A DNA stretch of 22,074 nt from a virus (taxonomy: Duplodnaviria > Heunggongvirae > Uroviricota > Caudoviricetes): the IMG/VR virus record IMGVR_UViG_643348545_000012; one strand, 5' to 3'. A program made the position numbers and the translations under genes. Under the pieces are notes generated by a model. It searched no databases, was not told where the DNA came from, and was given only the letters and a program-made list of their open reading frames with translations. How positions within the stretch are numbered: position 1 is the first letter of the stretch; the number at the start of each line of letters is the position of its first letter. Positions 5,977 through 22,074 of this stretch are shown one piece after another.

Positions 5977-5983
5977 CCGTTTC

Positions 5984-6070: not shown

Positions 6071-6134
6071 ACGCGTAATACAATGAAATAAAAGGATTTA
6101 TTTCTGGTCACGTCCACACATTGACCACATCGAC

Positions 6135-6158: not shown

Positions 6159-6171
6159 TTTCTGTTTGTAA

Positions 6172-6390: not shown

Positions 6391-6470
6391 CGCGAGCACC
6401 TCTTCCGGTTTTGTTAATGGTGCCATTTTATTTAATTTATCCTTATAAAACAAACAGATAAAACAAAACA

Positions 6471-7634: not shown

Positions 7635-8113
7635 TATCCCGCCCCCGTCATACCCGTGAATCTGGTCGCCACACTGCCAGCCTTACCGATGAGCGATTCC
7701 GCCTGTTTACCGATATCGCCATAAAGCGCGGCCAGTGATTCATCCACGCGGGTGAGCGACAGCGTAAAATCAATTTTCCGGGGTGTGCCGTCTGCAAAGA
7801 AAATACTCCCTGTTTCACTCACCCTGCTGATGACATACATGCCGTAAATCATGCCGGTGCCATCCAGCAACGGCCACGCCCGGCCTTCCTCTGCCATCAG
7901 CCTGAGCGTGGTCATCGTCAGCTTCCCGCCGGTCAGTTCGGGATAAAGCACGCCGGCAAGCGTCATGTTTTCCTCACCCACACCGAGAAACTGAAAGGCA
8001 TCCCGTTTACCGATACGGGAATTTGACGGCCAGCGATAATCTGATTCACGCTGCATGGTCTGGTGTGGCAGCGTCTGGCGCATAAAAACAAACATACCTA
8101 ACGCGAGCATCAT
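7634..8113 (-). CDS. U: P2-like tail protein U
   Basis: 159 aa ORF; position between T and D; stop overlaps the D start (coupled). Confidence 0.88.
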   Translation of the reverse strand: MMLALGMFVFMRQTLPHQTMQRESDYRWPSNSRIGKRDAFQFLGVGEENMTLAGVLYPELTGGKLTMTTLRLMAEEGRAWPLLDGTGMIYGMYVISRVSETGSIFFADGTPRKIDFTLSLTRVDESLAALYGDIGKQAESLIGKAGSVATRFTGMTGAG

Positions 8114-8127
8114 TTTTCGTCACCTCC

Positions 8128-10575
8128 TTAACCGTCATGCATCATGCTGGCACGGGCACGCGCACGTTTATCCCGCTCGTATTTTTCGAGCGCATCCTGT
8201 AACTGGCGGTCAAGCTGTGTCCCCGGCGCAGTACCACCCGTCAGGCTGATGTGATATTCGTTTTTACTCTGGTCCACATAAGAGCGGCCAGCCAGTGCCG
8301 TGACTGGCTGATAAGCCTGATAGCCTGCATAAGAGCTGGTCGCCGGAATATAACCACCGGTGCCATACGTGGCGGCATGAGTTCTGGCGGCGGTCTGGTC
8401 AAGTGTGTCTGACTCTTTGTTGATGACCCCGAGCTTTTCCAGTACCCAGGCAATACCGCTGCGCAGTTTGTTGAACGCATTAAGCGGCAGCATCAGCGCG
8501 TCAGCCAGTGCCTGCCCGAACATGACACCCGTGTCACGGCAACGGTTCAGGGTGTCCTGGGTGGCTTTGACCGGGGCAATCAGGTTTTTAAACCACTGCC
8601 ACGCGGCCTGTAACTTTTCGCCCAGCCAGTCAAACACCGGCTTAAGTGGCATGAACAGTTCCCCCACCGGCGCAAATGCCGCTTTCAGCCCTTCCACCAC
8701 ACCGCCAAAGAATGCGCTGACAGGCTCCCAGTATTTACGGATAAGCAACGCCCCGGCGACAATGGCGGCCACCACGGCCACAACCGGCCAGCTAATCGCC
8801 CCGATGGCCGTCATAACAGCACTGCCAACCGTCGTGAAGATTGCCCCCATTGCGCCTGCTGCCGCGATAATGGCATTGATGCCGGTGATAACCGGCCAGG
8901 CTACAAGACCAATGGCACCGATGATGCCAGTCAGCGCCAGTGCGCCACCGGCAATGAGGCCGGTGGTTGACGCCAGTGATTTGTTTTTCTGGATCCAGCC
9001 GTCGAGTTTTAGCACATACTTTGTGGCTGTCTGCGTGAGATTACGCAGTGCGCCTTCCTGCTGGTCAAACAGGTCAGTCCCCACCGCCTCATAAGCGGAC
9101 TGAAACTCCTTAAAGTCACCGCCGAGGTTGTCCTGCATGATATTTACCAGCTCGGCGGTCTTCCCGTCTGAGGCTTTAAACGCAGCGGTCAGTTTGTCCA
9201 GCTTTCCGGTTGAGGCGGCAGTCATCAGCACGGCGGCGGCTGAGCTGGCCTCTTCCCCGAAAATAGTTTTCATGTATTCAGCCTGCTGGGCAGTACCGAG
9301 CCGGTTTTTCTCAAAACTGGCCTGCATTTCTTTCAGAATGGTAAATACTGGTCGGGTGTTTCCCTTGCTGTCTGAGGTTTTCACACCAAGCTCTTTCAGT
9401 GCATCCCACGCTTTTCCCGTCGGTGCCTGCAGGCGGCTTAACACGGCACGGCTTCCCGTCCCCGCCATTGAGCCTGTGATTTTTGCATCATGCAGCGCCC
9501 CGACCATTGCGGCGGTTTCTTCAATGCTGACACCGGCATTTTTTGCCACAGGTGCGGCATAGGTCAGCGCATCGCTCATGCCGTCAAAATCGGCGGCGGT
9601 TTTGTTCATCGTCATGGAGAGAACATCCCCGATATGAGCGACCTTATCGTTTGAAAGCTGAAAGGCGGATTTCATCCCCATCAGCAGGGCGGCGTTTTCT
9701 TCCATCGTGCGACGGTTCGCCAGCGCCATATTCAGCGTGACCGGCGTTGCCGCCTGAATGGCATCAACATCCCCACCGGCTTTTGCAATGATAATCTGCG
9801 CACCGGCTGCATCATCCGCCGAGGCGGCGGTGTTGTCGCCGAGCTGGCGCGCCTGTTTGCGGAGCGCGGCCATTTCGGCGGAGTCTTTTGCCACGCCGAG
9901 CACAGCCTGTAATTCTGAGTTTTTCTGCGCAAACTCATAACCGGGCATCAGCAGCTTAACTCCGGCCATCGTTCCCGCCGCCGCAATCCCCACACCGGCA
10001 GCGCCCACTGAGGCCATATTTCCGGCCAGTTCCTTTCCGGCCTGATAACGCTGTTTGACTGCGTTAAGTTTTGCCTGTTGCGCGCTGACACGCGCCAGCG
10101 CGTCACGCTGCCGGTTAAGCTGCGCGGTGGTTTCACTGATACGGTTTTTCAGCCCCTGCTCATCATGTGCAAGATTGCGGGTATTAATTCCCACAGCAGC
10201 CAGTTCCCGCTGCTGGCGTTTAACGGAATCCGTCAGGCGGTTATATTTCGCCTGTAAGTCCTCCGCCGCTCGCTTTGCGGATTCCAGCACTTTCGCCTGA
10301 GCACGGGTCGGACGTTCGGTATTTTTAAACTGTGTGGCAAGGGCTTCGGCTTCCAGCCGTGCCTTCTCAAGTGCATGACCAGTCACGGCGAGCTGTGCGC
10401 TGGTCTTGCGAAATCCCTCAATACGGGATGCGTGACCGTTCAGCTCGCGCAGTGATTTTTGTGTGTCCCGGATATCCCCCGACAGCGACTTGCTCGCTGT
10501 ACGGATGGATTTAAACGGGCGGGATGCCTGGTCAACAGCCCTGAGCAATACCTGTAATTTTACATTGTTACTCAT
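8128..10575 (-). CDS. T: Tail tape-measure protein (P2 gpT-like)
   Basis: 815 aa ORF with coiled-coil-rich N-terminus and Gly/Ala-rich hydrophobic central segment, typical of tape-measure proteins; lies directly downstream of E/E'. Confidence 0.92.
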   Translation of the reverse strand: MSNNVKLQVLLRAVDQASRPFKSIRTASKSLSGDIRDTQKSLRELNGHASRIEGFRKTSAQLAVTGHALEKARLEAEALATQFKNTERPTRAQAKVLESAKRAAEDLQAKYNRLTDSVKRQQRELAAVGINTRNLAHDEQGLKNRISETTAQLNRQRDALARVSAQQAKLNAVKQRYQAGKELAGNMASVGAAGVGIAAAGTMAGVKLLMPGYEFAQKNSELQAVLGVAKDSAEMAALRKQARQLGDNTAASADDAAGAQIIIAKAGGDVDAIQAATPVTLNMALANRRTMEENAALLMGMKSAFQLSNDKVAHIGDVLSMTMNKTAADFDGMSDALTYAAPVAKNAGVSIEETAAMVGALHDAKITGSMAGTGSRAVLSRLQAPTGKAWDALKELGVKTSDSKGNTRPVFTILKEMQASFEKNRLGTAQQAEYMKTIFGEEASSAAAVLMTAASTGKLDKLTAAFKASDGKTAELVNIMQDNLGGDFKEFQSAYEAVGTDLFDQQEGALRNLTQTATKYVLKLDGWIQKNKSLASTTGLIAGGALALTGIIGAIGLVAWPVITGINAIIAAAGAMGAIFTTVGSAVMTAIGAISWPVVAVVAAIVAGALLIRKYWEPVSAFFGGVVEGLKAAFAPVGELFMPLKPVFDWLGEKLQAAWQWFKNLIAPVKATQDTLNRCRDTGVMFGQALADALMLPLNAFNKLRSGIAWVLEKLGVINKESDTLDQTAARTHAATYGTGGYIPATSSYAGYQAYQPVTALAGRSYVDQSKNEYHISLTGGTAPGTQLDRQLQDALEKYERDKRARARASMMHDG

Positions 10576-10995
10576 TCGTGTTTCCGCTTCGCCGGAGCGC
10601 CTTTTCGCGCCATGTGATGAGTTCGGTCAGGCTCATGGGATACAGTTCTGATGGCGGCCAGTGAAATATCACTGCCACATCCGCCATCAGGTCATCGACC
10701 GACAGATTTTTCGGAAACGTCACTGCACCGAGTTCGGCGACAAAAAACCGACCACCTTACCGGCCAGCGCCACAAGGTCAGGCAGTTCCAGCGCGGCGAC
10801 TTCCTGCTCGGTCAGCATCGGTGCCGTCATGCGCGGCAGCACCTTAATCAGTGCATCGACTTCGGAGTTTGCAACCGCAGCCAGACTGACACCGCGCAGC
10901 GTCCCGGCATTGGGTTTCATCAGCGTGACCTGTTCGATAACCTGCTCACCACGTTTGACCGGATTTTCCAGGGTAATGACATTTTCTTTGTTCAT
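10568..10995 (-). CDS. E': E+E' fusion produced by programmed -1 ribosomal frameshift at T_TTT_TTG (reverse complement of 10741-10747); E' extension ends at TAA 10568-10570, overlapping the T start
   Basis: Slippery heptamer read directly; the -1 frame is open from the slip site to 10568 and encodes ...FFVAELGAVTFPKNLSVDDLMADVAVIFHWPPSELYPMSLTELITWREKALRRSGNTNE; frame arithmetic is consistent with a -1 shift; matches the known P2 E/E' mechanism. Confidence 0.7.
10720..10995 (-). CDS. E: Tail assembly chaperone E (P2 gpE-like), 91 aa
   Basis: ORF MNKENVITLENPVKRGEQ...GFLSPNSVQ; position between FII and T; contains slippery heptamer near its 3' end. Confidence 0.88.
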   Translation of the reverse strand: MNKENVITLENPVKRGEQVIEQVTLMKPNAGTLRGVSLAAVANSEVDALIKVLPRMTAPMLTEQEVAALELPDLVALAGKVVGFLSPNSVQ

Positions 10996-11051
10996 GGTTT
11001 TCTCACTTCTGAATCAGGGTTAACCGGTCAGCCTGGCTGACCGTATGAAAA

Positions 11052-11570
11052 TCACAGGCCGATATTTCGGCGGTGTTGCTCCAGCCGGTCGACGCCGTTC
11101 ACCTTCTCAATCATGTTGATGGTGTCGATTTCGACCAGCTCCTTACCGTCCATCGTCAGCCGGAAATAAGTACAAATCACCGGGAGTTTCGATTCGGTAT
11201 CCTCTCCCTGTTTACCCTCTCCGGTGTCGACTTCTTTCTGACGCCCACGCATGACCACTTCGACGGCCACCGTTTCGCCGGTATCGTCGCGCTGGTAAGA
11301 ACCAGCAAAACGAATCGGTACGGCATCAGCACTGGTTGCAGCGTAAAGCTCCCAGATAACCGAATCCGGGAAACCCCCGAGCGACCACTCCATTGACAGC
11401 GCATCGTCATCAAGGCCGAGGTCTACCGGTGCGCTGCCGTTCATCCCCGCACCGCGATAATTTTCGAGCTTACGGGTCAGTTTTGGCAGCGTGACGGACG
11501 TTGCAACGCCCTGATAGCTGTAGCCGTTCAGAAAGACATTCATGTATTTGAGTTTGCGCGGCATTGCCAT
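11052..11570 (-). CDS. FII: Major tail tube protein (P2 gpFII-like)
   Basis: 172 aa ORF, gene order sheath-tube-E-T as in P2. Confidence 0.9.
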   Translation of the reverse strand: MAMPRKLKYMNVFLNGYSYQGVATSVTLPKLTRKLENYRGAGMNGSAPVDLGLDDDALSMEWSLGGFPDSVIWELYAATSADAVPIRFAGSYQRDDTGETVAVEVVMRGRQKEVDTGEGKQGEDTESKLPVICTYFRLTMDGKELVEIDTINMIEKVNGVDRLEQHRRNIGL

Positions 11571-11582
11571 CGGTCAGGCTCC

Positions 11583-12773
11583 TTAATTGCTGTTAACCGA
11601 GGTGACCAGATTTGCCAGGTATTTATCGGTAATACGCTGGCGCAGGGTCAGGTTTTCGAGAGGAGGCACCGGGGTATAGTCGTAGTCGATATACAGTTTT
11701 CCGGCCTTGAGGGTTTCCGCATCGTTGGATTCTTCGCTGAACCAGCAGGTCGCATCCACGATATAGCCGTTTGTTTTCAGCTCTCGGAATTTGGCATTGA
11801 TGCCGTCAACGATGTCGCGAATCAGCGTTGCGGTGATGGGCTTGTCCACCGCCCACATGTGCGCCTCAGCCATCGTGTCGGCCAGCACCTGCGCGGTGCG
11901 GGTGTAGTTTTCAAAGAGGAACAGCGGGTCATCAGAGCAGGTACGGTTACCCCAGAAGCGGAAACCGTCACGGCGAATCAGCGTTGTGACGCCTGACTCG
12001 TTAAGCAGGTCAGCATCGGTGCCGGACTCCTGCAAATCCCAGAATACGGACGCGCTGATGCCGGTAACACCGTTTACCCCGACGTTGGACAGCGTTTTAT
12101 GCCAGCCCTGCTCCTGGTCGATTTTAGCGCGCAGACCCAGCGCACGGGCGGTGGCATACGCGGTGGCGGTGGTACTGGTGACCGTATCCCATGCGAGGAA
12201 ATCCGGCCAGATGACCATCAGCTCACGCTGGCTGAAATTCTGGCGGTAGGCTTTCACCTCGGAAATGGTCTTACAGCCCCATGCGCTGATATATCCGAAA
12301 GCGCGCAGCTTCTGACAGACGGATGCCAGTGCAACAGCCACCTCTTTGGTATCCAGTCCCGGCACACCGAGAATACGCGGTTTAACACCGGTTACCGACT
12401 CCGCCGCCAGCAGGGCTTTTAGTCCGGTGTACTGACCGTTTTCGTCGGTGGTGCCGATGATATTGGAAACGGTCTGCGCGAGTTTCGTTTCCTCGTCATC
12501 ACCGGTGCCGTCTTCCACGCGCACGACAACGGTGACCGGTTTTGACTGGTCAGCGATGGCCTGCAACGATGCCGCCAGCGTGCCTTTTTTACCGGCCTTT
12601 GCAATTGCGCTTTGCACATTGGTAATCAGCACCGGTTTATTGAGGGGGAAGGTTTCCGCATCCGCATCGCTGGCCGTGCAGACCATGCCGACAATGGCAG
12701 TGGATACGGTGGAAATGACGCGGGTGCCGTCGTTAATCTCCAGCACCTGCACGCCATGATGATAGTCACTCAT
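11583..12773 (-). CDS. FI: Tail sheath protein (P2 gpFI-like)
   Basis: 396 aa ORF beginning MSDYHHGVQVLEINDG, same length and position as P2 gpFI. Confidence 0.92.
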   Translation of the reverse strand: MSDYHHGVQVLEINDGTRVISTVSTAIVGMVCTASDADAETFPLNKPVLITNVQSAIAKAGKKGTLAASLQAIADQSKPVTVVVRVEDGTGDDEETKLAQTVSNIIGTTDENGQYTGLKALLAAESVTGVKPRILGVPGLDTKEVAVALASVCQKLRAFGYISAWGCKTISEVKAYRQNFSQRELMVIWPDFLAWDTVTSTTATAYATARALGLRAKIDQEQGWHKTLSNVGVNGVTGISASVFWDLQESGTDADLLNESGVTTLIRRDGFRFWGNRTCSDDPLFLFENYTRTAQVLADTMAEAHMWAVDKPITATLIRDIVDGINAKFRELKTNGYIVDATCWFSEESNDAETLKAGKLYIDYDYTPVPPLENLTLRQRITDKYLANLVTSVNSN

Positions 12774-12869
12774 CCGTTTAACTCCGTGGTTAATGGGTGC
12801 AACTATTTTCTGTTGGGCAGTGCATGAGACGCTATTTGACCTGACTGGTCAGTGGATGAAACAACAGAT

Positions 12870-12898
12870 AAAGAAAAGGCGGGCAATTCGCCCGCCTG
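12870..12898 (-). terminator. Rho-independent terminator (hairpin GGCGGGC-aattc-GCCCGCC followed on the minus strand by TTTTCTTTAT), separating the cargo module from the FI late operon
   Basis: Perfect GC-rich 7-bp stem at 12880-12898 with T-rich tract on the minus strand. Confidence 0.55.
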
Positions 12899-12952
12899 TC
12901 CTGATTTGTACTCACTCATTTTCCGCCTGACAATTTACATAGCCCAAATGCT

Positions 12953-12975
12953 ATCAAATCTGACAGTCTGCTTTG
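12953..12975. repeat. Site A: atcaaatctgacagtctgctttg, copy 1 of a ~22-bp putative recombination site
   Basis: Shares the exact 11-mer ctgacagtctg plus flanks with sites at 15262-15284 (direct, 21/23) and 15384-15405 (inverted). Confidence 0.6.
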
Positions 12976-13103
12976 AGCGAAAAGTGGACATTAGAGTTAC
13001 AAAAGCAAGTTTAAATCATCCAAAATATTACAATGTCCTTATCTATCTGATATCGTTATAATAAAAAGCTCCTGAATATAATCGATAGTAGGTGGTTATT
13101 TCC

Positions 13104-13481
13104 ATGAAATCAATTTTAGAGGTTTTTACTCAAGGAAATACTAAAGAAAAACTGGCTGTTATCGCCGATCTCACAACCATTGCGGGAATATCGATTGCAA
13201 CTATTATTGCTGGTTTGTTAACCCTAGTTGCAAAAACAGATAAACTAGATGTTGGAAATCTGTTTGGAGTTGTCATAATATCTCTGCTCGGATTGGCTGG
13301 TGTTTGCTGTTTTGTGGCCTTATTTATTTGGGTTATAACCCAAATGTCTAAACCATGGGGAACACCTCGGGGGGTTCAGCCCTTAGTTAAGTGTGCTATT
13401 TCCCTTATCTTTATCTGTATGTTTTTGCTGGCTGTCTTTACATTTTATGAGTTTATTTCTTCGATGAGCATACGCTATTGA
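13104..13481 (+). CDS. Small integral membrane protein (about 125 aa, 3 predicted TM helices), cargo gene
   Basis: ORF in track (13092..13481, likely ATG at 13104 with aggtgg RBS); three long hydrophobic stretches; AT-rich. Confidence 0.55.
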   Translation: MKSILEVFTQGNTKEKLAVIADLTTIAGISIATIIAGLLTLVAKTDKLDVGNLFGVVIISLLGLAGVCCFVALFIWVITQMSKPWGTPRGVQPLVKCAISLIFICMFLLAVFTFYEFISSMSIRY

Positions 13482-13503
13482 ATATAAAATCAGCCCCCAT
13501 AAC

Positions 13504-14088
13504 TTAAAAGAGACCTTCTATATCGACTTCAATGCCCAAATAACGGACTGTGCTTTCCAGTTTCTTATGGCCCAACAGAAGTTGGATCACCCGGAGACTC
13601 TTGGTTTTCTTGTAGATTAAGTAAGGTTTTGTTCTTCTCATGGAATGTGTGCTGTACAGCGAATCTTCGAGACCAAGCTTTTCTACCCACCCATGAAAAA
13701 TTCGGTTGTATTGCCGGGTTGATATATGGTGGTTAGTTCCGACCCGAGAGCGGAACAGGAAGCCTTTACTATGCCAGTTGCCGAGCTTTATCAATGCAGT
13801 AACCGCTTCCCTTGTCCCTTTGGTTATCTCAAATTGGACAGGGCTGCCGGTTTTCTGTTGCAACACCGTTGCTCTGCTTGAGACAGAACTGCCATATGCA
13901 GCATCTGATACTTTGAGTTTGACCAAATCACAGCCCCGTAGCTTAGTGTCCAAAGCCATGTTGAACAGAGCTAGATCGCGTGTTTTACCTTCCAACTCAA
14001 GTCTAATCCGGATCCCCCAGATATGAGATATCTGAAGTGGCCTTTTTTGACCGATGGTACGGTCTTTATTCCACGGTGACGTTTTCAT
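13504..14088 (-). CDS. Short tyrosine recombinase (FimB/FimE-sized, about 194 aa)
   Basis: C-terminus HSMRRT...LLGHKKLESTVRYLGIEVD carries the box II H-x-x-R, second His and nucleophile Tyr; earlier TKLRGCDL supplies a candidate box I Arg. The track ORF starts at 14190, but the ATG at 14088 has an AGGAG RBS 8 nt upstream and gives a protein the size of FimB/FimE. Confidence 0.75.
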   Translation of the reverse strand: MKTSPWNKDRTIGQKRPLQISHIWGIRIRLELEGKTRDLALFNMALDTKLRGCDLVKLKVSDAAYGSSVSSRATVLQQKTGSPVQFEITKGTREAVTALIKLGNWHSKGFLFRSRVGTNHHISTRQYNRIFHGWVEKLGLEDSLYSTHSMRRTKPYLIYKKTKSLRVIQLLLGHKKLESTVRYLGIEVDIEGLF

Positions 14089-14194
14089 ATTCAAATCTCC
14101 TGCAATGTGGGAGATTTGAGTATGGTTGTCTCTCAAGAGCGAAAATAAGTCAACTATCACTAGTTGTTGCGCATGTACGTATTCTGTCAATTAA

Positions 14195-15037
14195 TTATTG
14201 ACAATCATCAATTCTGGAATGATCAAAATCATCATATCGAATTATAGTCTGGTTGACTGTATCTATTGTTGGTGTCATTTCTGTTATAATATCCTGATAA
14301 CCTAAAGAGTTAAATACATTTACTAAGGCCTCACACCGAAGGGCCGTAGCAATTACAAAATTATAAATTGCCAGCCGTTTATTTTCTTGTTTAACTGCAA
14401 GAATGAATTCGATAGCAGTATTTTCATCACTTTGGATTGCATTATATAGAGATACTATATTTACCATATCATCAGAGAATGTATGTATTGAATCACAAAG
14501 GGGAACGTAATGGGCATGATAGTGTGTTTCCCAGCCAATTAATTCAAAAAGTTTTCTGGTTCCTGGATATTCAGGTGTATTTGGCCACAATCTATTAAAT
14601 AGATCAGTTAGTTCTTTTCCCATGCGAATCCTTTCATTTGCTGCTGGATTAGTCATTCCTTTGGATTTTAAACACTCCAGCCACCGTTTTCCATTACTAT
14701 GAACTAATTTCTTACTAGCCTTGAGTAATGCTTGTGCATTTTCGCCATCATCTATTGCTATATAAAATTGATTGGCAGCCTGTTCTATTATAACCCTAGC
14801 TAATACTTCCGATGCTGAAAAGGCTCCTATATTCAAAGAAGAGATAGCCTGATTACTAAGTTCATTCAGTACATTAAAGTACTGTAAGACCATCAATTTT
14901 TGTTCCACACCCTTTAGGTTGTCTATTTTATTTTTATGCTCCTCAAATTTTGCATGGATATATTTATTTATCGCGGCTATTTTTTTTACATCTTCGTCAA
15001 GATCAAACGGGCAACGTCCAAACAATTCTTTTTTCAT
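14195..15037 (-). CDS. Hypothetical cytoplasmic protein (280 aa), cargo gene upstream of the recombinase
   Basis: ORF with AGGAG RBS 7 nt upstream of ATG; AT-rich; no recognisable motif (no RT YxDD, no clear nuclease or HEPN motif). Confidence 0.6.
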   Translation of the reverse strand: MKKELFGRCPFDLDEDVKKIAAINKYIHAKFEEHKNKIDNLKGVEQKLMVLQYFNVLNELSNQAISSLNIGAFSASEVLARVIIEQAANQFYIAIDDGENAQALLKASKKLVHSNGKRWLECLKSKGMTNPAANERIRMGKELTDLFNRLWPNTPEYPGTRKLFELIGWETHYHAHYVPLCDSIHTFSDDMVNIVSLYNAIQSDENTAIEFILAVKQENKRLAIYNFVIATALRCEALVNVFNSLGYQDIITEMTPTIDTVNQTIIRYDDFDHSRIDDCQ

Positions 15038-15075
15038 ATATTTCTCCTGTTGTACAAGCTTCCATAAGTTGGCAG

Positions 15076-15110
15076 ATTATACACTGAAGATTACCTATAA
15101 ATAGCTGTGC
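15076..15110 (-). promoter_or_regulatory. Candidate sigma70 promoter for the 280-aa cargo gene (perfect TATAAT on the minus strand at 15081-15076; weak -35)
   Basis: Reverse complement of attata at 15076-15081, about 38 nt upstream of the ATG at 15037; -35 element poor, so speculative. Confidence 0.3.
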
Positions 15111-15261
15111 GGGATAGCAGATCAGTGCAAGAAGTACAACCAAGTGAATGTGCGTATTCAGATACCTGGCCTAACGTTCGCGATAGCCGTCCCCTGCACG
15201 AAGCCATATATTAGATGTATTAGCTCAGACCTTATCTGACAGGTTGAGTAGGTAGAATCTA

Positions 15262-15284
15262 ATCAAAGCTGACAGTCTGGTTTG
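15262..15284. repeat. Site B: atcaaagctgacagtctggtttg, direct copy of site A
   Basis: 21 of 23 positions identical to site A; read directly. Confidence 0.6.
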
Positions 15285-15383
15285 GACTGTGAGTTCAACC
15301 GATGGATGCAACACACAGCGATCTACGGACATTACTAGCATAGCTGTGTATTAATCATCGGGAAGCAGGTCAGTCCGCTCCTA

Positions 15384-15405
15384 GCACAGAGCAGACTGTC
15401 AGATT
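15384..15405. repeat. Site C: inverted copy of the site (reverse complement aatctgacagtctgctctgtgc); also part of a 10-bp-stem hairpin tagcacagag...ctctgtgcta (15382-15423)
   Basis: Reverse complement matches site A at 20 of 22 positions; lies 47 bp downstream of the G stop codon. Confidence 0.6.
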
Positions 15406-15457
15406 AGGCTTTACTCTGTGCTATAGATACGTTAGCTCACTCCAGAGATCATACAAC

Positions 15458-15985
15458 TTATTGCGGCATTTCCGGCCATTCAGGATTTGCAGGATCCACA
15501 CGGCTGACCAGAACACTGTAGCGTTCCCATGCTTCCAGTCGGCTACGCTCCTCATCTGTTGCCATATTCAGTCTGACAGAGCGTTCCAGTGGCTGAATGA
15601 TAGTTTCAGCTTCGGAAAGCAAAGCTGACTTCTGTAATTCCGCCAGTTGCAGCTGTTCGTCTGCCGTATAAATCCGCTTAATCACGGCACCATCCTTAAA
15701 CATCCATTTACCTGAGTCATCAGCACGTCGGTTGGCGGTAATATCAGGAACCTCGACAACGCTAAAACCTTCAGGGTTGAGCGTTGAAGCATCTCTGGTG
15801 ATGCCGACAATTATATTATTCTCATCGTAAACAATCTTTATCGTGTCTTCCTGAAAATTACTTACTTCCTCATACCAGTTTTTTCCCTCTTCGGACCATA
15901 ACCAGATAACATCAAAATTTTTTGTCAGTTGATATTGGGCAACAGTTTTTGGATTACCCGCAGTAATATTTTTTAAATGCTGCAT
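15458..15985 (-). CDS. G: Tail fiber assembly chaperone (P2 gpG-like)
   Basis: 175 aa ORF immediately downstream of the tail fiber gene; same length as P2 gpG; Tfa-like sequence. Confidence 0.88.
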
Positions 15986-15988
15986 AAA

Positions 15989-18094
15989 TTACACCTGTGC
16001 GACGTTATACCATGTGCCATTGATGTATTTTTGTATTGGTCTGAATACTGCGGGGTCATCACCATCGACTTCACCGACAATACCAAGCCCGGTAATTACG
16101 TGCCCTGCTTTCTCATACATCACCCCTTTCTGCATGGTCTGGACAACACGTGTGCCAAGTCTGACATCTCTCACATAGCGGGAATCAAAGTTACCGTAAT
16201 CCGAGGGATTAACACGCCCCGTAATATTTATGGTTTTATTACTTTGAACGCTTCCGGAGACAAAGCGCATAACATGGACGCTATTAGCATAAACATCCAG
16301 ATTACCATCACCATTTTGTTTAAAGCCCGTGTCATTATCACCCAAAACAATCGAATTACCGCCAAGAGCACTGGATGTTCCTATACCCAGAGCACCATTC
16401 AATTGACCACCAGATAATGATAACGCCCCAACATCAGCAGCAGTCGGTTTAATGTACGAACTGTAAATTACATATACAGTTCCATCTGTCAGGCCTGTTG
16501 GTTTATTCGCTGTATAAGTTGGTGATGTATGAATCGTTACGCTGGCGTTACTGGTATAATCCCACTGAATATTAACACCTGTGGCGTAATTACCTATTTC
16601 AACATAAACATCATAGGTATCACCGGATGTATTCACCCATGCAAAATTAGTAAATCCAACCGATGTCCGTCGCCATAACGCACCAGTAAGACCTTTTGGA
16701 TTTCCATTTCCCGCACGAAGAACAAGTTCAGATATACCAGCCTGCATAGGGGAGTTAACATTATATCCGGCACCACCAATCAGGCTTATGTAAACCACGG
16801 AACTGGCCTGGGGCATGGTTACAGTTGCCAGCCTGAACCATCCTGTACCACCACTAAAAGACATGGTTGTTGAATTTGTTGCTCCAATATTGCGCAGGAA
16901 TAATCTTTTATCAGGAATATCCGCACCGTTCTGATCTTTCTGAAGACGTTTTTCAGCATTGTCATAGGCAGACTTCACCGCTTTTGGTGTTGCGGCCAGT
17001 GTTTCAGAATCACTGTTGGTGGCGCTACTGAGCTGAACAAGCCCTTTTCGCGCTGTGGTGGCATCCTGTGCAGTGTATTTCCCGTTAGCAAGGTCATACG
17101 CGACCTTTACCGCCTTTGGCGTTGCCGCAAGCGTTTCAGAATCACTGTTGGTGGCGCTACTGAGCTGGACAAGGCCTTTTCTCGCTGTGGTGGCGTCCTG
17201 TGCAGTGTATTTCCCGTTAGCAAGGTCATACGCGACCTTTACCGCCTTTGGCGTTGCGGCCAGCGTTTCAGAATCGCTGTTGGTGGCGCTACTGAGCTGA
17301 ACAAGACCTTTTCGCGCTGTGGTGGCGTCCTGTGCAGTGTATTTCCCGTTAGCAAGGTCATACGCGGCCTTTACCGCTTTTGGTGTTGCGGCGAGCGTTT
17401 CAGACGTGCTGTTGGTGGCACTACTGAGTTGGACAAGACCTTTTCGCGCTGTGGTGGCATCCTGCGCAGTATATTTCCCGTTAGCAAGGTCATACGCGGC
17501 CTTTACCGCTTTCGGCGTTGCAGCCAGTGTTTCAGACGCGCTGTTGGTTGCACTGCTTAACTGAGTAAAACCTTTTGCGGTCAGCGAGGCGTCCGGGTGA
17601 CGTCGTGACTGTTCATGCTCTGCAATTTTGTCATCAACGTAATCCTGCGTTGCCATCACCGTTGTGGTGTCAATGGTCAGCTCCACTGAGGCCACACTGC
17701 TGACGATGATGACCATGCGGCAGGTCTGCGAACGCCCTGAGCCTTCGGCAAGAGCGGGTTTATAACTTTCAGCCATGTTCGCCACGGCAATTAGCGTTCC
17801 CGCATCATCGTACAGGCCAAGCTCACGCATCCAGAAACCGCCCACCTCCGGCGGAATAACCAGCTCTGCGATAATATAATTACTGTTTCGTTTGTCCAGG
17901 GTGATTTTGTTCAGCGCATGTCGCCAGACTTCATGGATAAGCCCGGTCTGTCCGGCATCCGGGACAGGCAATTTACCACCGCCATCCCCGACGGCCATCG
18001 TGGTAATGTTGACCTTCCGCCCTCCCGGTGCGGTTGCCGCTGCCAGCTTTGCTGCACCGGCAGTGGTGATAACGGTTTTGAATTTTGTGCTCAT
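15989..18094 (-). CDS. H: Tail fiber protein (P2 gpH-like) with internal 44-aa tandem repeats
   Basis: 701 aa ORF; N-terminus MSTKFKTVITTAGAAKLAAATAPGG resembles the conserved fiber N-terminal baseplate-attachment region; C-terminal half divergent. Confidence 0.92.
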   Translation of the reverse strand: MSTKFKTVITTAGAAKLAAATAPGGRKVNITTMAVGDGGGKLPVPDAGQTGLIHEVWRHALNKITLDKRNSNYIIAELVIPPEVGGFWMRELGLYDDAGTLIAVANMAESYKPALAEGSGRSQTCRMVIIVSSVASVELTIDTTTVMATQDYVDDKIAEHEQSRRHPDASLTAKGFTQLSSATNSASETLAATPKAVKAAYDLANGKYTAQDATTARKGLVQLSSATNSTSETLAATPKAVKAAYDLANGKYTAQDATTARKGLVQLSSATNSDSETLAATPKAVKVAYDLANGKYTAQDATTARKGLVQLSSATNSDSETLAATPKAVKVAYDLANGKYTAQDATTARKGLVQLSSATNSDSETLAATPKAVKSAYDNAEKRLQKDQNGADIPDKRLFLRNIGATNSTTMSFSGGTGWFRLATVTMPQASSVVYISLIGGAGYNVNSPMQAGISELVLRAGNGNPKGLTGALWRRTSVGFTNFAWVNTSGDTYDVYVEIGNYATGVNIQWDYTSNASVTIHTSPTYTANKPTGLTDGTVYVIYSSYIKPTAADVGALSLSGGQLNGALGIGTSSALGGNSIVLGDNDTGFKQNGDGNLDVYANSVHVMRFVSGSVQSNKTINITGRVNPSDYGNFDSRYVRDVRLGTRVVQTMQKGVMYEKAGHVITGLGIVGEVDGDDPAVFRPIQKYINGTWYNVAQV
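16961..17572. repeat. Tandem repeat, 132-bp unit, about 4.6 copies, encoding the 44-aa motif SETLAATPKAVKxAYDLANGKYTAQDATTARKGLVQLSSATNSx inside the tail fiber gene
   Basis: Near-identical DNA units begin at about 16978, 17110, 17242, 17374, 17506; also visible as duplicated antisense ORFs 17055-17300 and 17319-17564 in the track. Confidence 0.9.
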
Positions 18095-18104
18095 TATTCC
18101 TCAC

Positions 18105-18635
18105 TTATCCGGGGTAAACCGTAATTACATCGCCGTCGTAAGCCACACCACCGGCGAACAGGTAGCCGGGAATGTCCCGGGTAATGTTCAGGCCAATAAG
18201 GTGACGGCTTGCAGGTTTGGCATCAGCAATCAGCCGTTCCATTTCCTGATACATTGCCTCTGTGATACCGCTTTCCAGTACACCAATATCAAGCCGGAAG
18301 GTGCCGGGCGGGTCACTGTTTTCCCACCACTCCGTCACGTTGATGAGATAGCCGAGCGGCTCCACCACACGCCGGATTGCACCTATCGTGCCCTTATGAC
18401 AGTGGATGAAATAGGCATCGCGGATAACGGCGCGTTTTGTCGCTTCCGGCCACTTTTCATCCCATCTGTCGACCGAAAACGCCCACGCCAGCCACGGCAG
18501 CAGATTTGCCGGACAGGTATTCGGGTTCCACAGATCACGAATACTGACCGGCGTTTTTTCAATTTCCGCACAGGCTTTTGCGGCGGCAACTTCAAGCGGT
18601 GATGAGCCGGTCGGCAGCAGTCGCGAATCACTCAT
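18105..18635 (-). CDS. I: Baseplate assembly protein I (P2 gpI-like)
   Basis: 176 aa ORF, position between J and H. Confidence 0.9.
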   Translation of the reverse strand: MSDSRLLPTGSSPLEVAAAKACAEIEKTPVSIRDLWNPNTCPANLLPWLAWAFSVDRWDEKWPEATKRAVIRDAYFIHCHKGTIGAIRRVVEPLGYLINVTEWWENSDPPGTFRLDIGVLESGITEAMYQEMERLIADAKPASRHLIGLNITRDIPGYLFAGGVAYDGDVITVYPG

Positions 18636-19536
18636 CCGAGCCTCCGGTCACGACGTGGTATTCGGTACAGAAAGACGCCTGCGTACTGTTGAGCACGATA
18701 TCGACCAGTGGTGCAGCCAGTTCGACACGCTGCACGCCTTCCACATGCAAAGCGGCATAAATGGCAGACAGACGGATGTCGCGCCCCAGCCGGTGCTGTG
18801 CCGTGATGTACGCTTCCAGTTTTTTCACGGCAGCAGCGCGGATGGGTTCGCTTTCGGGACCAGGGTAAAGGTAAAGCGTGGCGTTTATCTGGTATTCAAC
18901 GATGGCGGCAGACTGCACGGTCACGCGGTCGGCCACCGGCCTGACGTCCTCGCCATTAAGGGCGTTACGCACCACCGCCAGCAGGTCTTCGGATGCGACA
19001 CCGTTATTTTCACGTGACAGCACAGAGATGGTGACGCAGGCCGGAGACGGACTGGTGACAGAGATATCCGCGACACGCCCGTCGGCACTGCGACCATGAT
19101 ACTGATAAGCCCCCACCGACCCGGCGACGCTTAAACCTTCAAACGCCTGCTGAATACGCAGACGATAATCCGTGTCAGATTCCATCACGGCCGGTGTCGG
19201 CGGGAGGGTCGAATCATCTGCCGGGGTGATAGTCAGACGCGTGGTGTTGTAATTGGCACCAATCACATCAAGGTCATTACCGGCGGCACAGGCCAGCATT
19301 ACCGCCCGTGCGGCCTCATTCACACGCTGACGCCAGATAAGCTCACGATAAGCATTTTCCTCCAGCAGTTTGACGAGAGGCTCGGATTCCAGCATCAGGG
19401 CACGGGCGACCGCCTCCTGCTGGTCTTCCGGGTAAAGGGAAATCAGTGTCGCCTTGCGTTCAGCAAGAATGGTTTCAAAGTCCAGCTCCTCGACCACATC
19501 CGGTGCGGGTAGCTGGTTCAGGTCGATAATCGGCAT
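18628..19536 (-). CDS. J: Baseplate assembly protein J (P2 gpJ-like)
   Basis: 302 aa ORF, overlaps I start by 8 nt, gene order W-J-I. Confidence 0.92.
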   Translation of the reverse strand: MPIIDLNQLPAPDVVEELDFETILAERKATLISLYPEDQQEAVARALMLESEPLVKLLEENAYRELIWRQRVNEAARAVMLACAAGNDLDVIGANYNTTRLTITPADDSTLPPTPAVMESDTDYRLRIQQAFEGLSVAGSVGAYQYHGRSADGRVADISVTSPSPACVTISVLSRENNGVASEDLLAVVRNALNGEDVRPVADRVTVQSAAIVEYQINATLYLYPGPESEPIRAAAVKKLEAYITAQHRLGRDIRLSAIYAALHVEGVQRVELAAPLVDIVLNSTQASFCTEYHVVTGGSDE

Positions 19537-19540
19537 GGTT

Positions 19541-19888
19541 TCAACTCACAGGGATGGTTAACGAAAGTGGCTGGCCGGTGTCGTTGTGCTGGCCGGTTAA
19601 CGTGACCGTCATTCGCCCGTCAAAACTGCGCGCCGTGGTGACGGATGACAGGGTGACGCGGGGTTCCCATTTCAGCACTGCCATGTAACAGGCGACTTTA
19701 ATCTGCAACTCAAGCGCCGGGGTCTGCGGCTGGTCAATCATTGACGCCAGCAACGAGCCGTAATCACGACGCATCACCCGTGAGCCGACCGGTGTGCGCA
19801 GGATATCGCCGATACTCTGGCTGATATGCTCAAGGTCAGTGACAGTCAGGCCATCACTGCGATTCATTCCGAGATAACGCGCTGTCAT
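19541..19888 (-). CDS. W: Baseplate protein W (gp25/GPW family)
   Basis: 115 aa ORF beginning MTARYLGMNRSDG; start overlaps V stop (ATGA). Confidence 0.9.
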   Translation of the reverse strand: MTARYLGMNRSDGLTVTDLEHISQSIGDILRTPVGSRVMRRDYGSLLASMIDQPQTPALELQIKVACYMAVLKWEPRVTLSSVTTARSFDGRMTVTLTGQHNDTGQPLSLTIPVS

Positions 19889-20520
19889 AGAGGTCCCCCT
19901 GTTGTGCCGCCACTGTCGCCGGGGTGTTTATGGGTATGCAGTACCTTACCGTTTGATGAGAGTTCACCGCCGGTGTGTTCAATGTTGCCGCGCATCGTCC
20001 CGCCCTTCTGCACTTCCAGCGTGCCGGTAATCAGCCTGTTGGTGCAGACCACCTCCGGTGTGTCCAGGGTGACGCGGGTTGATGCTTTCACCATGACCAC
20101 CGGCACCGTGGCAGTAACAGAATCAGAAGCCGTCACGCTGGCCGTTTTAATTCCGCTTACCGTAAGTGCACTGGTTTCGGGTTCATACTCAATCACCACC
20201 CCGTCAGGGAAACGGATATGCAGGGCATCCGCCGACGCAGACGGCGCGGGGTTATCGCCGGAATAAATTCCCGGCAGAACGAATGCCGTGTCGAGTTCAC
20301 CGCCCACGGACAGAATCAGCACCTGTTCCCCCACGGAAGGTGCCCACCATGTGCGCGAACGACCGGCGCGATGGGTCAGCCACTGAAGCCAGTCGGTGCA
20401 CATGCCGCCGGTCTGCACGCGGCAGCGACCGGCGTTAAGGTCGGTTTCGACGATAATGCCGGTGCGAATCATGTTGCGCAGTGCGCGCGCGAGTTCCTGA
20501 ATATTTGCGAGAGTGTTCAT
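19885..20520 (-). CDS. V: Baseplate spike/assembly protein V (P2 gpV-like), 211 aa
   Basis: Track ORF begins at a TTG at 20538; the ATG at 20520 gives MNTLANIQELARALRN, which I take as the P2 gpV N-terminus. Confidence 0.9.
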   Translation of the reverse strand: MNTLANIQELARALRNMIRTGIIVETDLNAGRCRVQTGGMCTDWLQWLTHRAGRSRTWWAPSVGEQVLILSVGGELDTAFVLPGIYSGDNPAPSASADALHIRFPDGVVIEYEPETSALTVSGIKTASVTASDSVTATVPVVMVKASTRVTLDTPEVVCTNRLITGTLEVQKGGTMRGNIEHTGGELSSNGKVLHTHKHPGDSGGTTGGPL

Positions 20521-20603
20521 GCATGTGAGATTGCACAATATATAAAAGTTATGCTATCTGGATTCATTTGTAGAACTACCAGACAACATTCAAGGAGAGC
20601 GTA

Positions 20604-21317
20604 ATGGTCAGCTATAATGTGACTAATGTGTGGGGGCTAATCGTTTTTTTCCTTTGTAGCTTTGCAGTATTAGCATTTTTTAGCTTTGGTAAAAGTAACC
20701 TTATGAGGCTTATTGCACATTATTTCAATTTTGGATATTCAGACAAAAAATTAAAAAGACTTGACCGCGAGTGGCGCGACATTCAACTATTTAAAATAAT
20801 TAATGGAATCAATGTATCAGGCATTGAAAATGTGAGAATGATACAGCAGGGACTGATTGATGGAAAACTAAAAACATCGTATTTTTCCCTTACTCGCATC
20901 TGGGGTGACATAACAAAACCACCACACATAATTAAAACAATAATTGTAATTCTGGCCAGTATTTTTTACATTCTCCTCGCATGTTACATACACAACGAAC
21001 AATCCGTTATAGTAAGGGATGCCATAGGCATACCATATAAAAACATGATGTACTATGTTTATAGTGACAAAGTTCTTTTATCCTTCAAAAATAAAGCAGT
21101 TGAATTTAATAAAACTTATAGCCTTGCCGATTGCAAGAGACTGCAAAACGTATTTATAAAAGACACACTTCCTGAGATCGCCTGCAATAAGCTCTTACAG
21201 CTAAACGAGGAGGACTCCGAATGGTTAAGCCAGGAGATTAAAGATAATAACAGTCACAAAAAAGCATTATTAATACTATCCCTGAAGCCGAGAGTGTCCA
21301 CACAGTGTCCACAGTAG
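20604..21317 (+). CDS. Hypothetical AT-rich membrane protein (237 aa, two hydrophobic segments), divergent from V; prophage cargo
   Basis: ORF with AGGAG RBS 6 nt upstream of ATG; very AT-rich relative to adjacent tail genes; TM-like segments VWGLIVFFLCSFAVLAFFSF and IIKTIIVILASIFYILLACYI. Confidence 0.55.
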   Translation: MVSYNVTNVWGLIVFFLCSFAVLAFFSFGKSNLMRLIAHYFNFGYSDKKLKRLDREWRDIQLFKIINGINVSGIENVRMIQQGLIDGKLKTSYFSLTRIWGDITKPPHIIKTIIVILASIFYILLACYIHNEQSVIVRDAIGIPYKNMMYYVYSDKVLLSFKNKAVEFNKTYSLADCKRLQNVFIKDTLPEIACNKLLQLNEEDSEWLSQEIKDNNSHKKALLILSLKPRVSTQCPQ

Positions 21318-21401
21318 AGTAACGTTTAAGGGCTTTCAGTGGTAATTTATGCCGCTCAAACCCGCATTGTACCGTTGAAAGCCCCTACTGGTGACACCCT
21401 A

Positions 21402-21428
21402 AATCTCCCTTACACGGGCTTATTTTTT
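21402..21428. repeat. Second copy of the 27-bp P2-type att core (right prophage junction)
   Basis: Exact direct repeat of 6044-6070; followed by a hairpin gggcttat...ataagccc. Confidence 0.7.
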
Positions 21429-21756
21429 ATGCATAAGCCCTATCCCTGGTCACCGTCTTCCATTGACCACATCGATAGAATACTCCTTCATAGCACGATG
21501 CCTTTCACTTATCGACATCGTGCTCCCACAGGTTCCGGCTACGCACAGCCAGAACGCGCATGTTTGACGCTTACCAAAAAATGAACCTAAAGCATTGGAA
21601 TATTTTTGACATCATTTTCTGATGGCTGCATAAAATAAAAATTCTGCTTTAGTTTCATCTATCTGTTTGTCATTATTACTCACATTCAATAATGGTGTTG
21701 AAGAATATCCCATCACAGATAAAATAAATATGTGCATGGTAGTCTTGAATCTATTC

Positions 21757-22074
21757 TCACTCTCCACATTTGAATGTCAGACGAGCGACGCCATGTAATC
21801 CTGCACCTTCTGTCTTCAGGTCAACTATCTGCATTTTTTTGCCCTGAGTAACACAGAAATGAGTTGCATCATTTTTTACTATATTTTCTGCACCAGATAT
21901 TCTACCCCTGGCTAAAGAAGCTTCGGCTTCGGTGTAGTATTGGTTATCCAGTTTACGCTGAATATTACTTTTATATGCAAGGCCAAATTTACCGATACTT
22001 GTCTCATCATTATGCACAGCACAACCAGACATAAGAAAAACACTAATTAATGATATAGCAGCTATCTTTTTCAC
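21757..22074 (-). CDS. yegR: Small lipoprotein (signal peptide ending LMSGC), YegR-like; probable GTG start at the window edge, so the N-terminus could be truncated by the window
   Basis: 105 aa ORF with lipobox; matches my recollection that yegR (105 aa) follows the ogrK remnant in E. coli K-12; symbol assigned with moderate certainty. Confidence 0.55.
   Translation of the reverse strand: MKKIAAISLISVFLMSGCAVHNDETSIGKFGLAYKSNIQRKLDNQYYTEAEASLARGRISGAENIVKNDATHFCVTQGKKMQIVDLKTEGAGLHGVARLTFKCGE

What the first reader, a model, noticed from the sequence alone, without database searches (positions are those of the whole stretch)
21402..21530. Right att core is followed by sequence resembling the ogr-proximal phage arm, not unrelated host DNA
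After both cores the sequence shares further blocks: 6071-6133 (...ctggtcacgtccacacattgaccacatcga) and 21429-21477 (...ctggtcaccgtcttccattgaccacatcga), plus near-identical bases immediately after the core (acgcgtaa versus atgcataa). In a simple single prophage, one side of each core should be phage arm and the other host. Similar arms on the same side of both cores suggest a tandem or secondary integration whose second element has been almost entirely deleted (K-12 has an ogrK plus D-fragment remnant at this locus), or an extended att homology. A 9-bp-stem inverted repeat (agcacgatg...catcgtgct, 21491-21527) lies in this remnant.
Basis: seen in the sequence. Interest (0 to 1): 0.45.

Follow-up and report, generated by a model that had tools for sequence, protein, structure and literature searches.

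The report
Fossil P2 arm beside E. coli attB
The phage-arm-like DNA after the right attachment core is not left by a recent second prophage in this strain: it is a fossil of a much older P2-type insertion that nearly all E. coli carry next to the cyaR gene, even when no prophage is there.

Summary
Both 27-bp P2 cores (6044-6070, 21402-21428) are identical. After each core come 6/8 matching bases and a ~30-nt block (6104-6133; 21446-21475) that is the annotated Int arm-type site of the P2 P arm.

The right-hand flank is ordinary E. coli DNA. 4218 of 5426 complete genomes carry cyaR-core-this flank-yegR with no prophage. K-12 has the same flank beyond its ogrK/D' remnant.

The flank is nevertheless a phage fossil:
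- In E. whittamii, Escherichia sp. E1V33 and 63 other enterobacterial species, cyaR directly abuts yegS.
- In E. coli, about 1 kb of AT-rich DNA (arm-like flank plus yegR) is inserted exactly at the core. It ends in a degenerate second core (16-20 of 27) in register with the ancestral sequence.
- A divergent Escherichia lineage keeps the IHF-site part of the arm, which E. coli has lost.

So later P2-like phages, including this window's int-less deleted prophage, integrated beside an ancient remnant. I found no evidence that the fossil still functions. Interest is modest.

The parts
5982..6067 (+). cyaR sRNA gene. Its terminator hairpin and T-run form the P2 attachment core.
   Evidence: Rfam RF00112, 100.7 bits against a gathering score of 47. 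MG1655 annotates cyaR at the homologous place.
6044..6070 (.). Left 27-bp P2 att core. Host (cyaR) lies on its left and the phage P arm on its right.
   Evidence: Identical to the core of P2 attP as annotated in AF063097.
6071..6103 (.). IHF-site region of the resident prophage's P arm.
   Evidence: Collinear with the P2 IHF protein_bind feature 24324-24357.
6104..6133 (.). Int arm-type binding site of the P arm. On the - strand it holds two direct repeats, TGTGGTCA and TGTGGACG.
   Evidence: Collinear with the P2 'Int, P arm' feature 24293-24320. The P2-type arm repeat consensus is tgTGGaCa (PMC3448106).
6138..6161 (-). Rho-independent terminator of ogr and the F operon.
   Evidence: Collinear with the P2 terminator feature 24265-24288.
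6172..6390 (-). ogr, the late-gene activator.
   Evidence: 96-98% nucleotide identity to ogr of P2 and other Peduovirus genomes.
6071..21401 (-). Defective P2-like prophage. It runs ogr, D, U, T, E, FII, FI, a cargo insert at the Z region, G, H, I, J, W, V and a truncated orf30. Head, lysis, replication, immunity, cox and int genes are all missing.
   Evidence: blastn against P2: window 6044-12988 matches P2 24382-17433, and window 17369-21283 matches P2 13459-9545.
21282..21283 (.). Internal deletion junction of about 18.6 kb. It joins P2 coordinate 9545 (inside orf30) to 24502 (the 3' end of int).
   Evidence: None of the 5426 complete E. coli genomes carries this junction.
21288..21314 (.). 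P' arm Int arm-type site, with gtgtccaca repeated at 21294-21313.
   Evidence: Collinear with the P2 'Int, P' arm' feature 24470-24496, at 99% identity.
21312..21385 (.). Cox-binding region of the P' arm.
   Evidence: Collinear with the P2 Cox protein_bind feature 24399-24472.
21402..21428 (.). Right 27-bp att core. The phage P' arm lies on its left and the E. coli flank on its right.
   Evidence: Identical to the left core. The match to prophage-free E. coli starts exactly here.
21429..21445 (.). Fossil of the core-proximal P arm. The first 8 bases match 6/8. Relative to P2 there is a 16-nt gap that removes most of the IHF site. ATAAGCCC (21433-21440) is the reverse complement of GGGCTTAT inside the core.
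   Evidence: Alignment A1; folds.
21446..21475 (.). Fossil Int arm-type site. One of the two repeats is intact (TGTGGTCA on the - strand) and the other is destroyed (TGTGGACG has become GAAGACGG).
   Evidence: Present at the empty site of other E. coli.
21492..21524 (.). Inverted repeat with a 9-bp stem and 15-nt loop, conserved in E. coli and Shigella. It has no T-run and its function is unknown.
21583..21752 (.). 170-nt AT-rich segment present in this strain and in the L100 lineage but deleted in K-12-type strains. It holds a 41-51 aa ORF just downstream of yegR.
21757..22074 (-). yegR, a 105-aa lipoprotein gene lying inside the ancient islet.
   Evidence: RefSeq annotation of identical DNA. 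The family is almost confined to Escherichia.

Best explanation
Window 21429-21475 is a decayed copy of the P arm of a P2-type attP. It was left by an ancient P2-type integration at the 3' end of cyaR in an ancestor of E. coli.

Proposed history:
1. The ancestral arrangement was yegQ-cyaR-yegS.
2. A P2-type element integrated at the 27-bp core (the cyaR terminator) and duplicated the core.
3. Almost all of the element was lost. About 1 kb of AT-rich DNA remains: a P-arm fragment, the hairpin region, a small ORF, yegR, and a decayed second core next to yegS. The left core stayed perfect because it is the cyaR terminator.
4. This hybrid junction became the ordinary, unoccupied P2 attB of E. coli.
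5. Later P2-like phages integrated into the intact left core. Every such prophage therefore ends on the int side as P' arm-Cox sites-core-old P arm fossil. This window shows that arrangement. So does K-12, whose second-generation prophage has shrunk to ogrK-D' (PR-X).

The fossil has lost the IHF site and one of the two Int arm repeats. It is most likely inert. The only likely consequence is that it lengthens the interrupted direct repeat flanking the prophage.

Shown here: the sequence homology, the population distribution, the insertion polarity and the second core. Inferred: that yegR came in with the element, and that the fossil is non-functional.
For: - **Identity of the block.** The shared block coincides with the annotated Int P-arm binding site of P2. 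It is non-random.
- **Present at empty sites.** The same flank follows the core where no prophage is present (L002). 4218 of 5426 complete genomes carry the cyaR-core-flank junction, and 1192 carry cyaR-core-P arm-ogr instead.
- **K-12.** It has the same flank to the right of the truncated right core of its ogrK/D' remnant.
- **Ancestral state.** In 65 of 120 enterobacterial species loci, yegS starts 74-243 nt (median 84) after the cyaR T-run. These include E. whittamii and Escherichia sp. E1V33, which have neither yegR nor the flank.
- **Second core.** The yegR-yegS spacer ends in a core-like 27-mer exactly in register with the ancestral downstream sequence. It matches 20/27 in L100 (p about 1e-7), 18/27 in K-12 (p about 6e-6) and 16/27 in L002 (p about 1.6e-4).
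- **Divergent lineage.** The Escherichia lineage L100 (yegQ 92.7% identical) has the homologous flank but retains the IHF-site region and CTGGTTACG. The two lineages kept different pieces of one fuller arm.
- **Base composition.** The islet is 37.7% GC, against 54% for yegQ and 49% for yegS.
- **Direction of transfer.** P2-like arms with both repeats, at +40 and +51 nt from the core, occur in prophages at this same site in Citrobacter, E. ruysiae and others. This points to phage-to-host transfer.
Against: - No P2 gene is detectable inside the islet at protein or DNA level; only the arm is.
- YegR has no homologue in phage records, apart from two records that include this host flank. Its rare distant homologues lie in IS-rich or chromosomal contexts, not in P2 prophages.
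- Similarity of the DNA left of the degenerate core to the P2 Cox-side arm is only marginal: p about 0.05 in E. coli and not significant in L100.
- The genus survey was cut at 120 loci. E. fergusonii, E. marmotae and clade I were not seen, so loss in some lineages, or lateral transfer of the islet between Escherichia lineages, cannot be separated from a single ancient gain.
- The arm fragment and the core-flanked islet could stem from two separate events.
Confidence: 0.75

Rival explanations
1. Functional extended attB. The arm-type half-site next to the core is kept because it recruits the N-terminal domain of P2 Int. It would then help make this the preferred integration site, or tune excision at the int-proximal junction, which resembles a partial attP (P' arm-Cox-core-half P arm).
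For: One repeat (TGTGGTCA) is intact and identical to the phage's own repeat. The block is present in essentially all E. coli.
Against: The IHF site and the second repeat are gone, and the spacing to the core is shifted by 16 nt. In the L100 lineage the retained repeat is itself degenerate while other parts survive, as expected for neutral decay. Substitutions occur inside the block in K-12 and Shigella. By the standard model, attB needs only core-type sites (PMC3448106).
Confidence: 0.1
2. Two unrelated events. yegR arrived with some other core-duplicating element or by another route. The arm fragment is a separate, later scar from the imprecise loss of a P2-like prophage.
For: No phage gene or phage homologue links yegR to P2. 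K-12 shows that such partial deletions do happen at this site.
Against: The arm fragment is shared, with shared derived substitutions, by E. coli and the divergent L100 lineage, so it is about as old as the islet. The fragment sits on the correct side and in the correct orientation relative to the decayed second core.
Confidence: 0.12
3. A strain-specific tandem or secondary P2 integration that was almost wholly deleted, or the K-12-type ogrK/D' remnant.
For: Similar arms lie on the same side of both cores.
Against: The identical flank lies at empty sites in 78% of complete genomes. No ogr or D sequence lies right of the core. K-12 has this flank in addition to its remnant.
Confidence: 0.01
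4. Chance resemblance, or composition-driven similarity.
For: The homology is short, about 40 nt.
Against: The score exceeds all 500 shuffles. The block is in the right place and orientation next to the core. An independent lineage retains the adjacent IHF-site part.
Confidence: 0.02

Closest known systems
Bacteriophage P2 attP, P arm (IHF site plus two Int arm-type repeats; AF063097 features 24293-24357)
   Same: It lies next to the same 27-bp core, on the ogr side, in the same orientation. CTGGTCAC and CATTGACCACATCGA are identical, and one tgTGGaCa-type repeat is intact.
   Different: A 16-nt gap removes most of the IHF site. The second repeat is destroyed. No ogr terminator or ogr gene follows. 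The sequence sits in host DNA at unoccupied sites.
E. coli K-12 cryptic P2 remnant PR-X (ogrK-yegZ, MG1655 2167183-2167811)
   Same: It is at the same locus and also comes from P2-type integration at the cyaR core followed by massive deletion. K-12 carries the same fossil flank to the right of PR-X.
   Different: PR-X keeps ogr and the 3' end of D at about 97% identity to P2, and is confined to some strains. The fossil described here is older, species-wide, holds no recognisable phage gene, and lies outside the annotated PR-X interval.
Decayed integrative-element islets flanked by att direct repeats at tRNA or sRNA 3' ends
   Same: It is an insertion exactly at the 3' end of a small RNA gene. 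The perfect repeat sits on the RNA-gene side and the decayed repeat on the far side. It has low GC and a small orphan cargo gene.
   Different: It is extremely reduced, at about 1 kb, with no integrase fragment detectable.

Membership tests
P2-type attP P arm | Lies directly next to the 27-bp core on the ogr-proximal side, in the phage orientation. | tested here: met
   Alignment A1. blastn of the flank against P2 gives 24327-24279.
P2-type attP P arm | At least two direct repeats matching tgTGGaCa (PMC3448106). | tested here: not met
   Only TGTGGTCA survives. The second repeat now reads GAAGACGG. Intact arms in other loci have both repeats at +40 and +51.
P2-type attP P arm | An IHF site between the core and the arm repeats. 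| tested here: not met
   A 16-nt gap covers it in E. coli. The homologous flank of Escherichia lineage L100 retains it.
P2-type attP P arm | Bound by the N-terminal domain of Int. | not testable with these tools
   Needs a footprint or EMSA.
Prophage or integrative-element remnant flanked by att repeats | An insertion relative to related taxa, exactly at the att core. | tested here: met
   cyaR directly abuts yegS in 65 of 120 species loci, including E. whittamii and Escherichia sp. E1V33.
Prophage or integrative-element remnant flanked by att repeats | A second copy of the core at the far end, in register with the ancestral sequence. | tested here: met
   20/27 in L100, 18/27 in K-12 and 16/27 in L002.
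Prophage or integrative-element remnant flanked by att repeats | Recognisable phage genes or gene fragments inside. | tested here: not met
   tblastn of Ogr, D, U, Int, C and Cox gives only noise (E > 0.4). YegR has no phage homologue.
Prophage or integrative-element remnant flanked by att repeats | Atypical base composition. | tested here: met
   37.7% GC, against 49-54% in the flanking genes.
K-12 PR-X (ogrK/yegZ) remnant | ogr and D' sequence to the right of the right core. | tested here: not met
   The flank goes straight on to yegR.
Intrinsic terminator (for the 21492-21524 hairpin) | A GC-rich stem followed by a T-run. | tested here: not met
   No terminator-like site was called and neither strand has a T-run.
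CyaR/RyeE sRNA (the host gene that supplies the core) | Match to the Rfam covariance model above the gathering score. | tested here: met
   RF00112, 100.7 bits, at 5982-6067.

The most novel reading that the evidence does not exclude
The canonical, 'unoccupied' P2 attachment site next to cyaR in E. coli is really a hybrid prophage junction left by an ancient P2-type element. Its surviving Int arm half-site still binds integrase. That binding would bias site choice towards this locus, or alter the excision of every P2-like prophage integrated there. yegR would be domesticated cargo of that element.
Probability: 0.12. Interest if true: 0.5.

Novelty: new member of a known kind. Interest (0 to 1): 0.3.

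Why it matters
- **Annotation.** The DNA to the right of P2-like prophages at the cyaR site is arm-like in every E. coli. It should not be read as evidence of a tandem lysogen or used to set prophage boundaries.
- **History of the locus.** The classical P2 attB here has a phage past. About 1 kb including yegR, which current K-12 annotation leaves outside cryptic prophage PR-X, is best read as an older remnant. The locus then records at least two generations of P2-type integration.
- **Testable question.** It raises a small experiment: does a fossil arm half-site next to attB affect Int-mediated recombination?

None of this changes how P2 recombination is understood.

Tried and rejected
- **A phage with a better-matching arm.** I searched 50,697 phage records with 21429-21760. 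The only hits were two records that include this host flank, vB_EcoM-720R8 and 'Phage TP'.
- **Decayed P2 genes in the islet.** tblastn and sensitive blastn found only the arm.
- **A link between YegR and phages.**
  - There is no hit in the local Pfam copy.
  - There are no phage homologues.
  - The family (PF27694) is almost confined to Escherichia.
  - Distant homologues lie in an IS-rich island in Enterobacter and in a chromosomal site elsewhere.
- **The hairpin as a terminator.** Rejected: it has no T-run.
- **Cox-side arm homology next to the degenerate core.** Marginal, and not relied on.
- **An early misreading.** I first took ORF 20604-21317 for a truncated integrase. It is the orf30 homologue fused across the deletion junction.
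- **Literature.** Barreiro & Haggard-Ljungquist 1992 (PMID 1597423) is not held. That this site equals 'locI', and that K-12's remnant is about 639 nt, rests on my memory of that paper. No held paper linked yegR or the flank to P2.
- **Limit of the genus survey.** The genome-contig scan stopped at 120 loci and cannot be repeated.

Full report
**What the window is.** The window is E. coli DNA. yegQ/trhP lies at 4538-5899. The sRNA gene cyaR lies at 5982-6067 (Rfam RF00112, 100.7 bits). The terminator of cyaR is the 27-bp core of the phage P2 attachment site (6044-6070).

To the right of this core comes the P arm of a P2-like prophage. The GenBank record of P2 (AF063097) annotates its parts. The IHF site corresponds to window 6071-6103, the Int arm-type site to 6104-6133, and the ogr terminator and ogr follow. 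The late tail genes then run D through V on the minus strand.

At 21282/21283 the P2 homology jumps from P2 coordinate 9545 (inside orf30) to 24502 (the last codons of int). The element is therefore a defective prophage. It has lost about 18.6 kb, which held the head, lysis, replication, immunity, cox and int genes. It keeps the P' arm Int site (21288-21314), the Cox-binding region (21312-21385) and the right core (21402-21428). None of the 5426 complete E. coli genomes searched has this deletion junction. Strain 317, whose right junction is 100% identical, carries a full-length prophage there.

**The observation.** It is correct.
- The cores are identical over 28 nt.
- The next 8 bases match 6/8.
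- A 30-nt block recurs: 6104-6133 ctggtcacGTCCACAcattgaccacatcga, and 21446-21475 ctggtcacCGTCTTCcattgaccacatcga.
- The block sits 33 nt from the left core and 17 nt from the right core.
- A local alignment of the two after-core sequences scores 38, against 19.4 +/- 2.5 (maximum 30) in 500 shuffles.
- The block is exactly the annotated Int binding site of the P2 P arm.
- The P2-type arm repeat consensus is tgTGGaCa, with at least two direct repeats per arm (PMC3448106). On the minus strand the phage arm reads TGTGGTCA-atg-TGTGGACG. The right flank reads TGTGGTCA-atg-GAAGACGG, so one repeat is intact and one is destroyed.
- Alignment A1 shows that the difference in spacing is a 16-nt gap that removes most of the IHF site.
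- The 9-bp inverted repeat (21492-21500 and 21516-21524) is real and folds far better than shuffles. It has no T-run and is not called as a terminator.

**Is the flank host or phage?** It is host DNA, in the sense that it is there without any prophage.
- Strain 72322051416_S37 has yegQ-cyaR-core followed directly by this flank and yegR.
- A 201-nt probe spanning that empty junction is covered at 80% or more in 4218 of 5426 complete genomes.
- The occupied junction, cyaR-core-P arm-ogr, is found in 1192 genomes.
- In K-12 the order is cyaR, core, P arm, ogrK, D' fragment, a truncated right core (tacacgggcttattttttt), and then the same arm-like flank and yegR. K-12 therefore has the flank in addition to its known remnant.
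- No phage record carries an arm that matches the flank better than P2 does.

This is not a strain-specific second element, and it is not the ogrK/D' remnant.

**Why the conserved flank still looks like a phage arm.**
- I scanned one genome per bacterial species for the cyaR seed and obtained 120 loci. In 65 of them, yegS starts 74-243 nt (median 84) after the cyaR T-run. These span Klebsiella, Kosakonia, Enterobacter, Atlantibacter, Citrobacter and others. They include E. whittamii and Escherichia sp. E1V33. Those two Escherichia species have neither yegR nor the arm-like flank.
- E. coli, Shigella and a divergent Escherichia lineage have about 1 kb inserted exactly after the core. The divergent lineage is L100; its yegQ is 92.7% identical to the window's.
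- The far end of the insert, just before the sequence that in the other species follows cyaR, is a core-like 27-mer in perfect register. It matches 20/27 in L100, 18/27 in K-12 and 16/27 in L002. The fixed-position binomial p values are about 1e-7, 6e-6 and 1.6e-4 (alignment A2).
- The insert is 37.7% GC, against 54% for yegQ and 49% for yegS.
- The L100 flank is homologous to the E. coli flank but keeps the IHF-site region and CTGGTTACG, while its copy of the retained repeat has decayed. The two lineages thus preserve different parts of one fuller arm.
- E. albertii has a P arm cut by an IS element at the same place.
- Intact P2-type arms with both repeats, at +40 and +51 nt, occur in prophages at this site in Citrobacter and E. 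ruysiae. The direction of transfer is therefore phage to host.

**Model.**
1. A P2-type element integrated at the cyaR terminator in an ancestor of E. coli and duplicated the core.
2. Nearly all of it was deleted or decayed. What remains is a P-arm fragment, a hairpin, a small ORF, yegR and a decayed second core.
3. Selection on cyaR kept the left core perfect, so the site went on serving as attB.
4. Later P2-like phages integrate into that core. Their int-proximal junction always abuts the old arm. This window shows that arrangement. So does K-12, where the later prophage shrank to ogrK-D'.

The homology, the distribution, the polarity of the insertion and the second core are shown directly. 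It is inferred that yegR arrived with that element, and that the fossil arm no longer acts in recombination.

**Weak points.**
- No P2 gene can be detected in the islet.
- YegR has no phage homologue.
- Its few distant relatives lie in an IS-rich island in Enterobacter or in a chromosomal site, not in P2 prophages.
- Its predicted fold is uninformative.
- Similarity between the DNA left of the decayed core and the P2 Cox-side arm is marginal.
A single ancient gain cannot be told apart from gain plus loss or transfer within the genus.
- The arm fragment and the islet could come from separate events. I give that 0.12.
- A functional 'extended attB' is possible but disfavoured, because the IHF site and one repeat are lost, the spacing has shifted, and decay differs between lineages. 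I give that 0.1.

**Comparison with what is known.**
- The K-12 P2 remnant at this locus is long known. MG1655 annotates it as cryptic prophage PR-X, 2167183-2167811, covering ogrK and yegZ only. It is also the subject of Barreiro & Haggard-Ljungquist 1992, which I could not retrieve. From memory, that paper places the remnant at the site equivalent to locI of E. coli C.
- The arm-like flank and yegR lie outside PR-X, and I found no held paper that links them to P2.
- The feature fails membership as a working P arm, since two repeats and an IHF site are both missing.
- It meets three of the four criteria for an att-flanked remnant.
- It is a new, older member of a familiar kind of object, not a new kind of system.

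**Verdict.** This is an ordinary but tidy piece of genome archaeology. Its practical value lies in setting prophage boundaries at the cyaR site, and in one small testable question about fossil arm sites. Interest 0.3.

Noticed in passing
window 21282-21283 (prophage 6071-21401): The P2-like prophage has an internal deletion of about 18.6 kb. It joins orf30 to the last codons of int with a 2-nt (CT) microhomology and removes int, C, cox, the replication, head and lysis genes. ORF 20604-21317 is the resulting orf30 fusion. None of 5426 complete E. coli genomes has this junction.
   Followed up: partly
window 12988-15373 (ORFs 13504-14190 and 14195-15037, minus strand): At the P2 Z/fun cargo position the prophage carries non-P2 DNA. 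It encodes a 228-aa protein with a tyrosine-recombinase (Phage_integrase) catalytic domain and a 280-aa DUF5677 protein. This may be a defence or moron cassette.
   Followed up: no
window 1-4446: Upstream of yegQ the window does not match the usual baeR-yegP neighbourhood. Instead it encodes three minus-strand proteins: DUF4034 (715 aa, cut by the window end), DUF1266 (238 aa) and a weak PcfJ-like protein (404 aa). This looks like an island of unknown function.
   Followed up: no
window 21583-21752: A 170-nt AT-rich segment between the fossil arm and yegR is present here, in the 948 complete genomes where at least 80% of the probe window 21330-22074 is covered, and in the divergent L100 lineage. 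It is deleted in K-12-type strains. It holds a 41-51 aa ORF (21612-21767, minus strand) with a hydrophobic N-terminus that overlaps the yegR stop codon.
   Followed up: partly
window 21416-21440: GGGCTTAT in the core (21416-21423) and ATAAGCCC in the flank (21433-21440) form an 8-bp inverted repeat across the cyaR T-run. It is present only in the E. coli-type flank, not in P2 attP. It would form a second hairpin in read-through transcripts.
   Followed up: no
window 16961-17444 (gene H, 15989-18094, minus strand): The tail-fibre gene shows repeated blastn matches to one P2 H segment at 132-nt offsets. This suggests a tandem expansion of a 44-aa unit relative to P2.
   Followed up: no
L008, L046, L047, L075, L076, L081, L091, L105, L120, L123 (Enterobacter spp.), directly after the cyaR T-run: Many Enterobacter species have a conserved insert of about 550 nt between cyaR and yegS. 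Other species have inserts of 0.6-3 kb at the same point. The cyaR 3' end therefore seems to be a general hotspot that collects small islets across Enterobacteriaceae.
   Followed up: no
L073 and L009 (records titled Enterobacter hormaechei B17-3 and B56): These loci have an E. coli-type yegQ (97-98% identical to the window) and an E. coli-type core, but an Enterobacter-type yegS (about 72-73% amino-acid identity). This suggests inter-genus recombination or transfer ending at the cyaR site, or a mixed assembly.
   Followed up: no
L056 (E. albertii NBRC 107761), about 47 nt after the core: A P2-type P arm follows cyaR but is cut off within the first Int repeat by what looks like an IS element with an IS3-like orfA. 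This is another independent remnant at the same site.
   Followed up: no
L015, L023, L040, L080 (Citrobacter, an unnamed bacterium, Enterobacter, Huaxiibacter): P2-type arms with one or two repeats follow cyaR, but no Ogr or D homologue was found in the 1.3-3 kb of downstream sequence held. These may be further arm-only fossils or divergent prophages.
   Followed up: no
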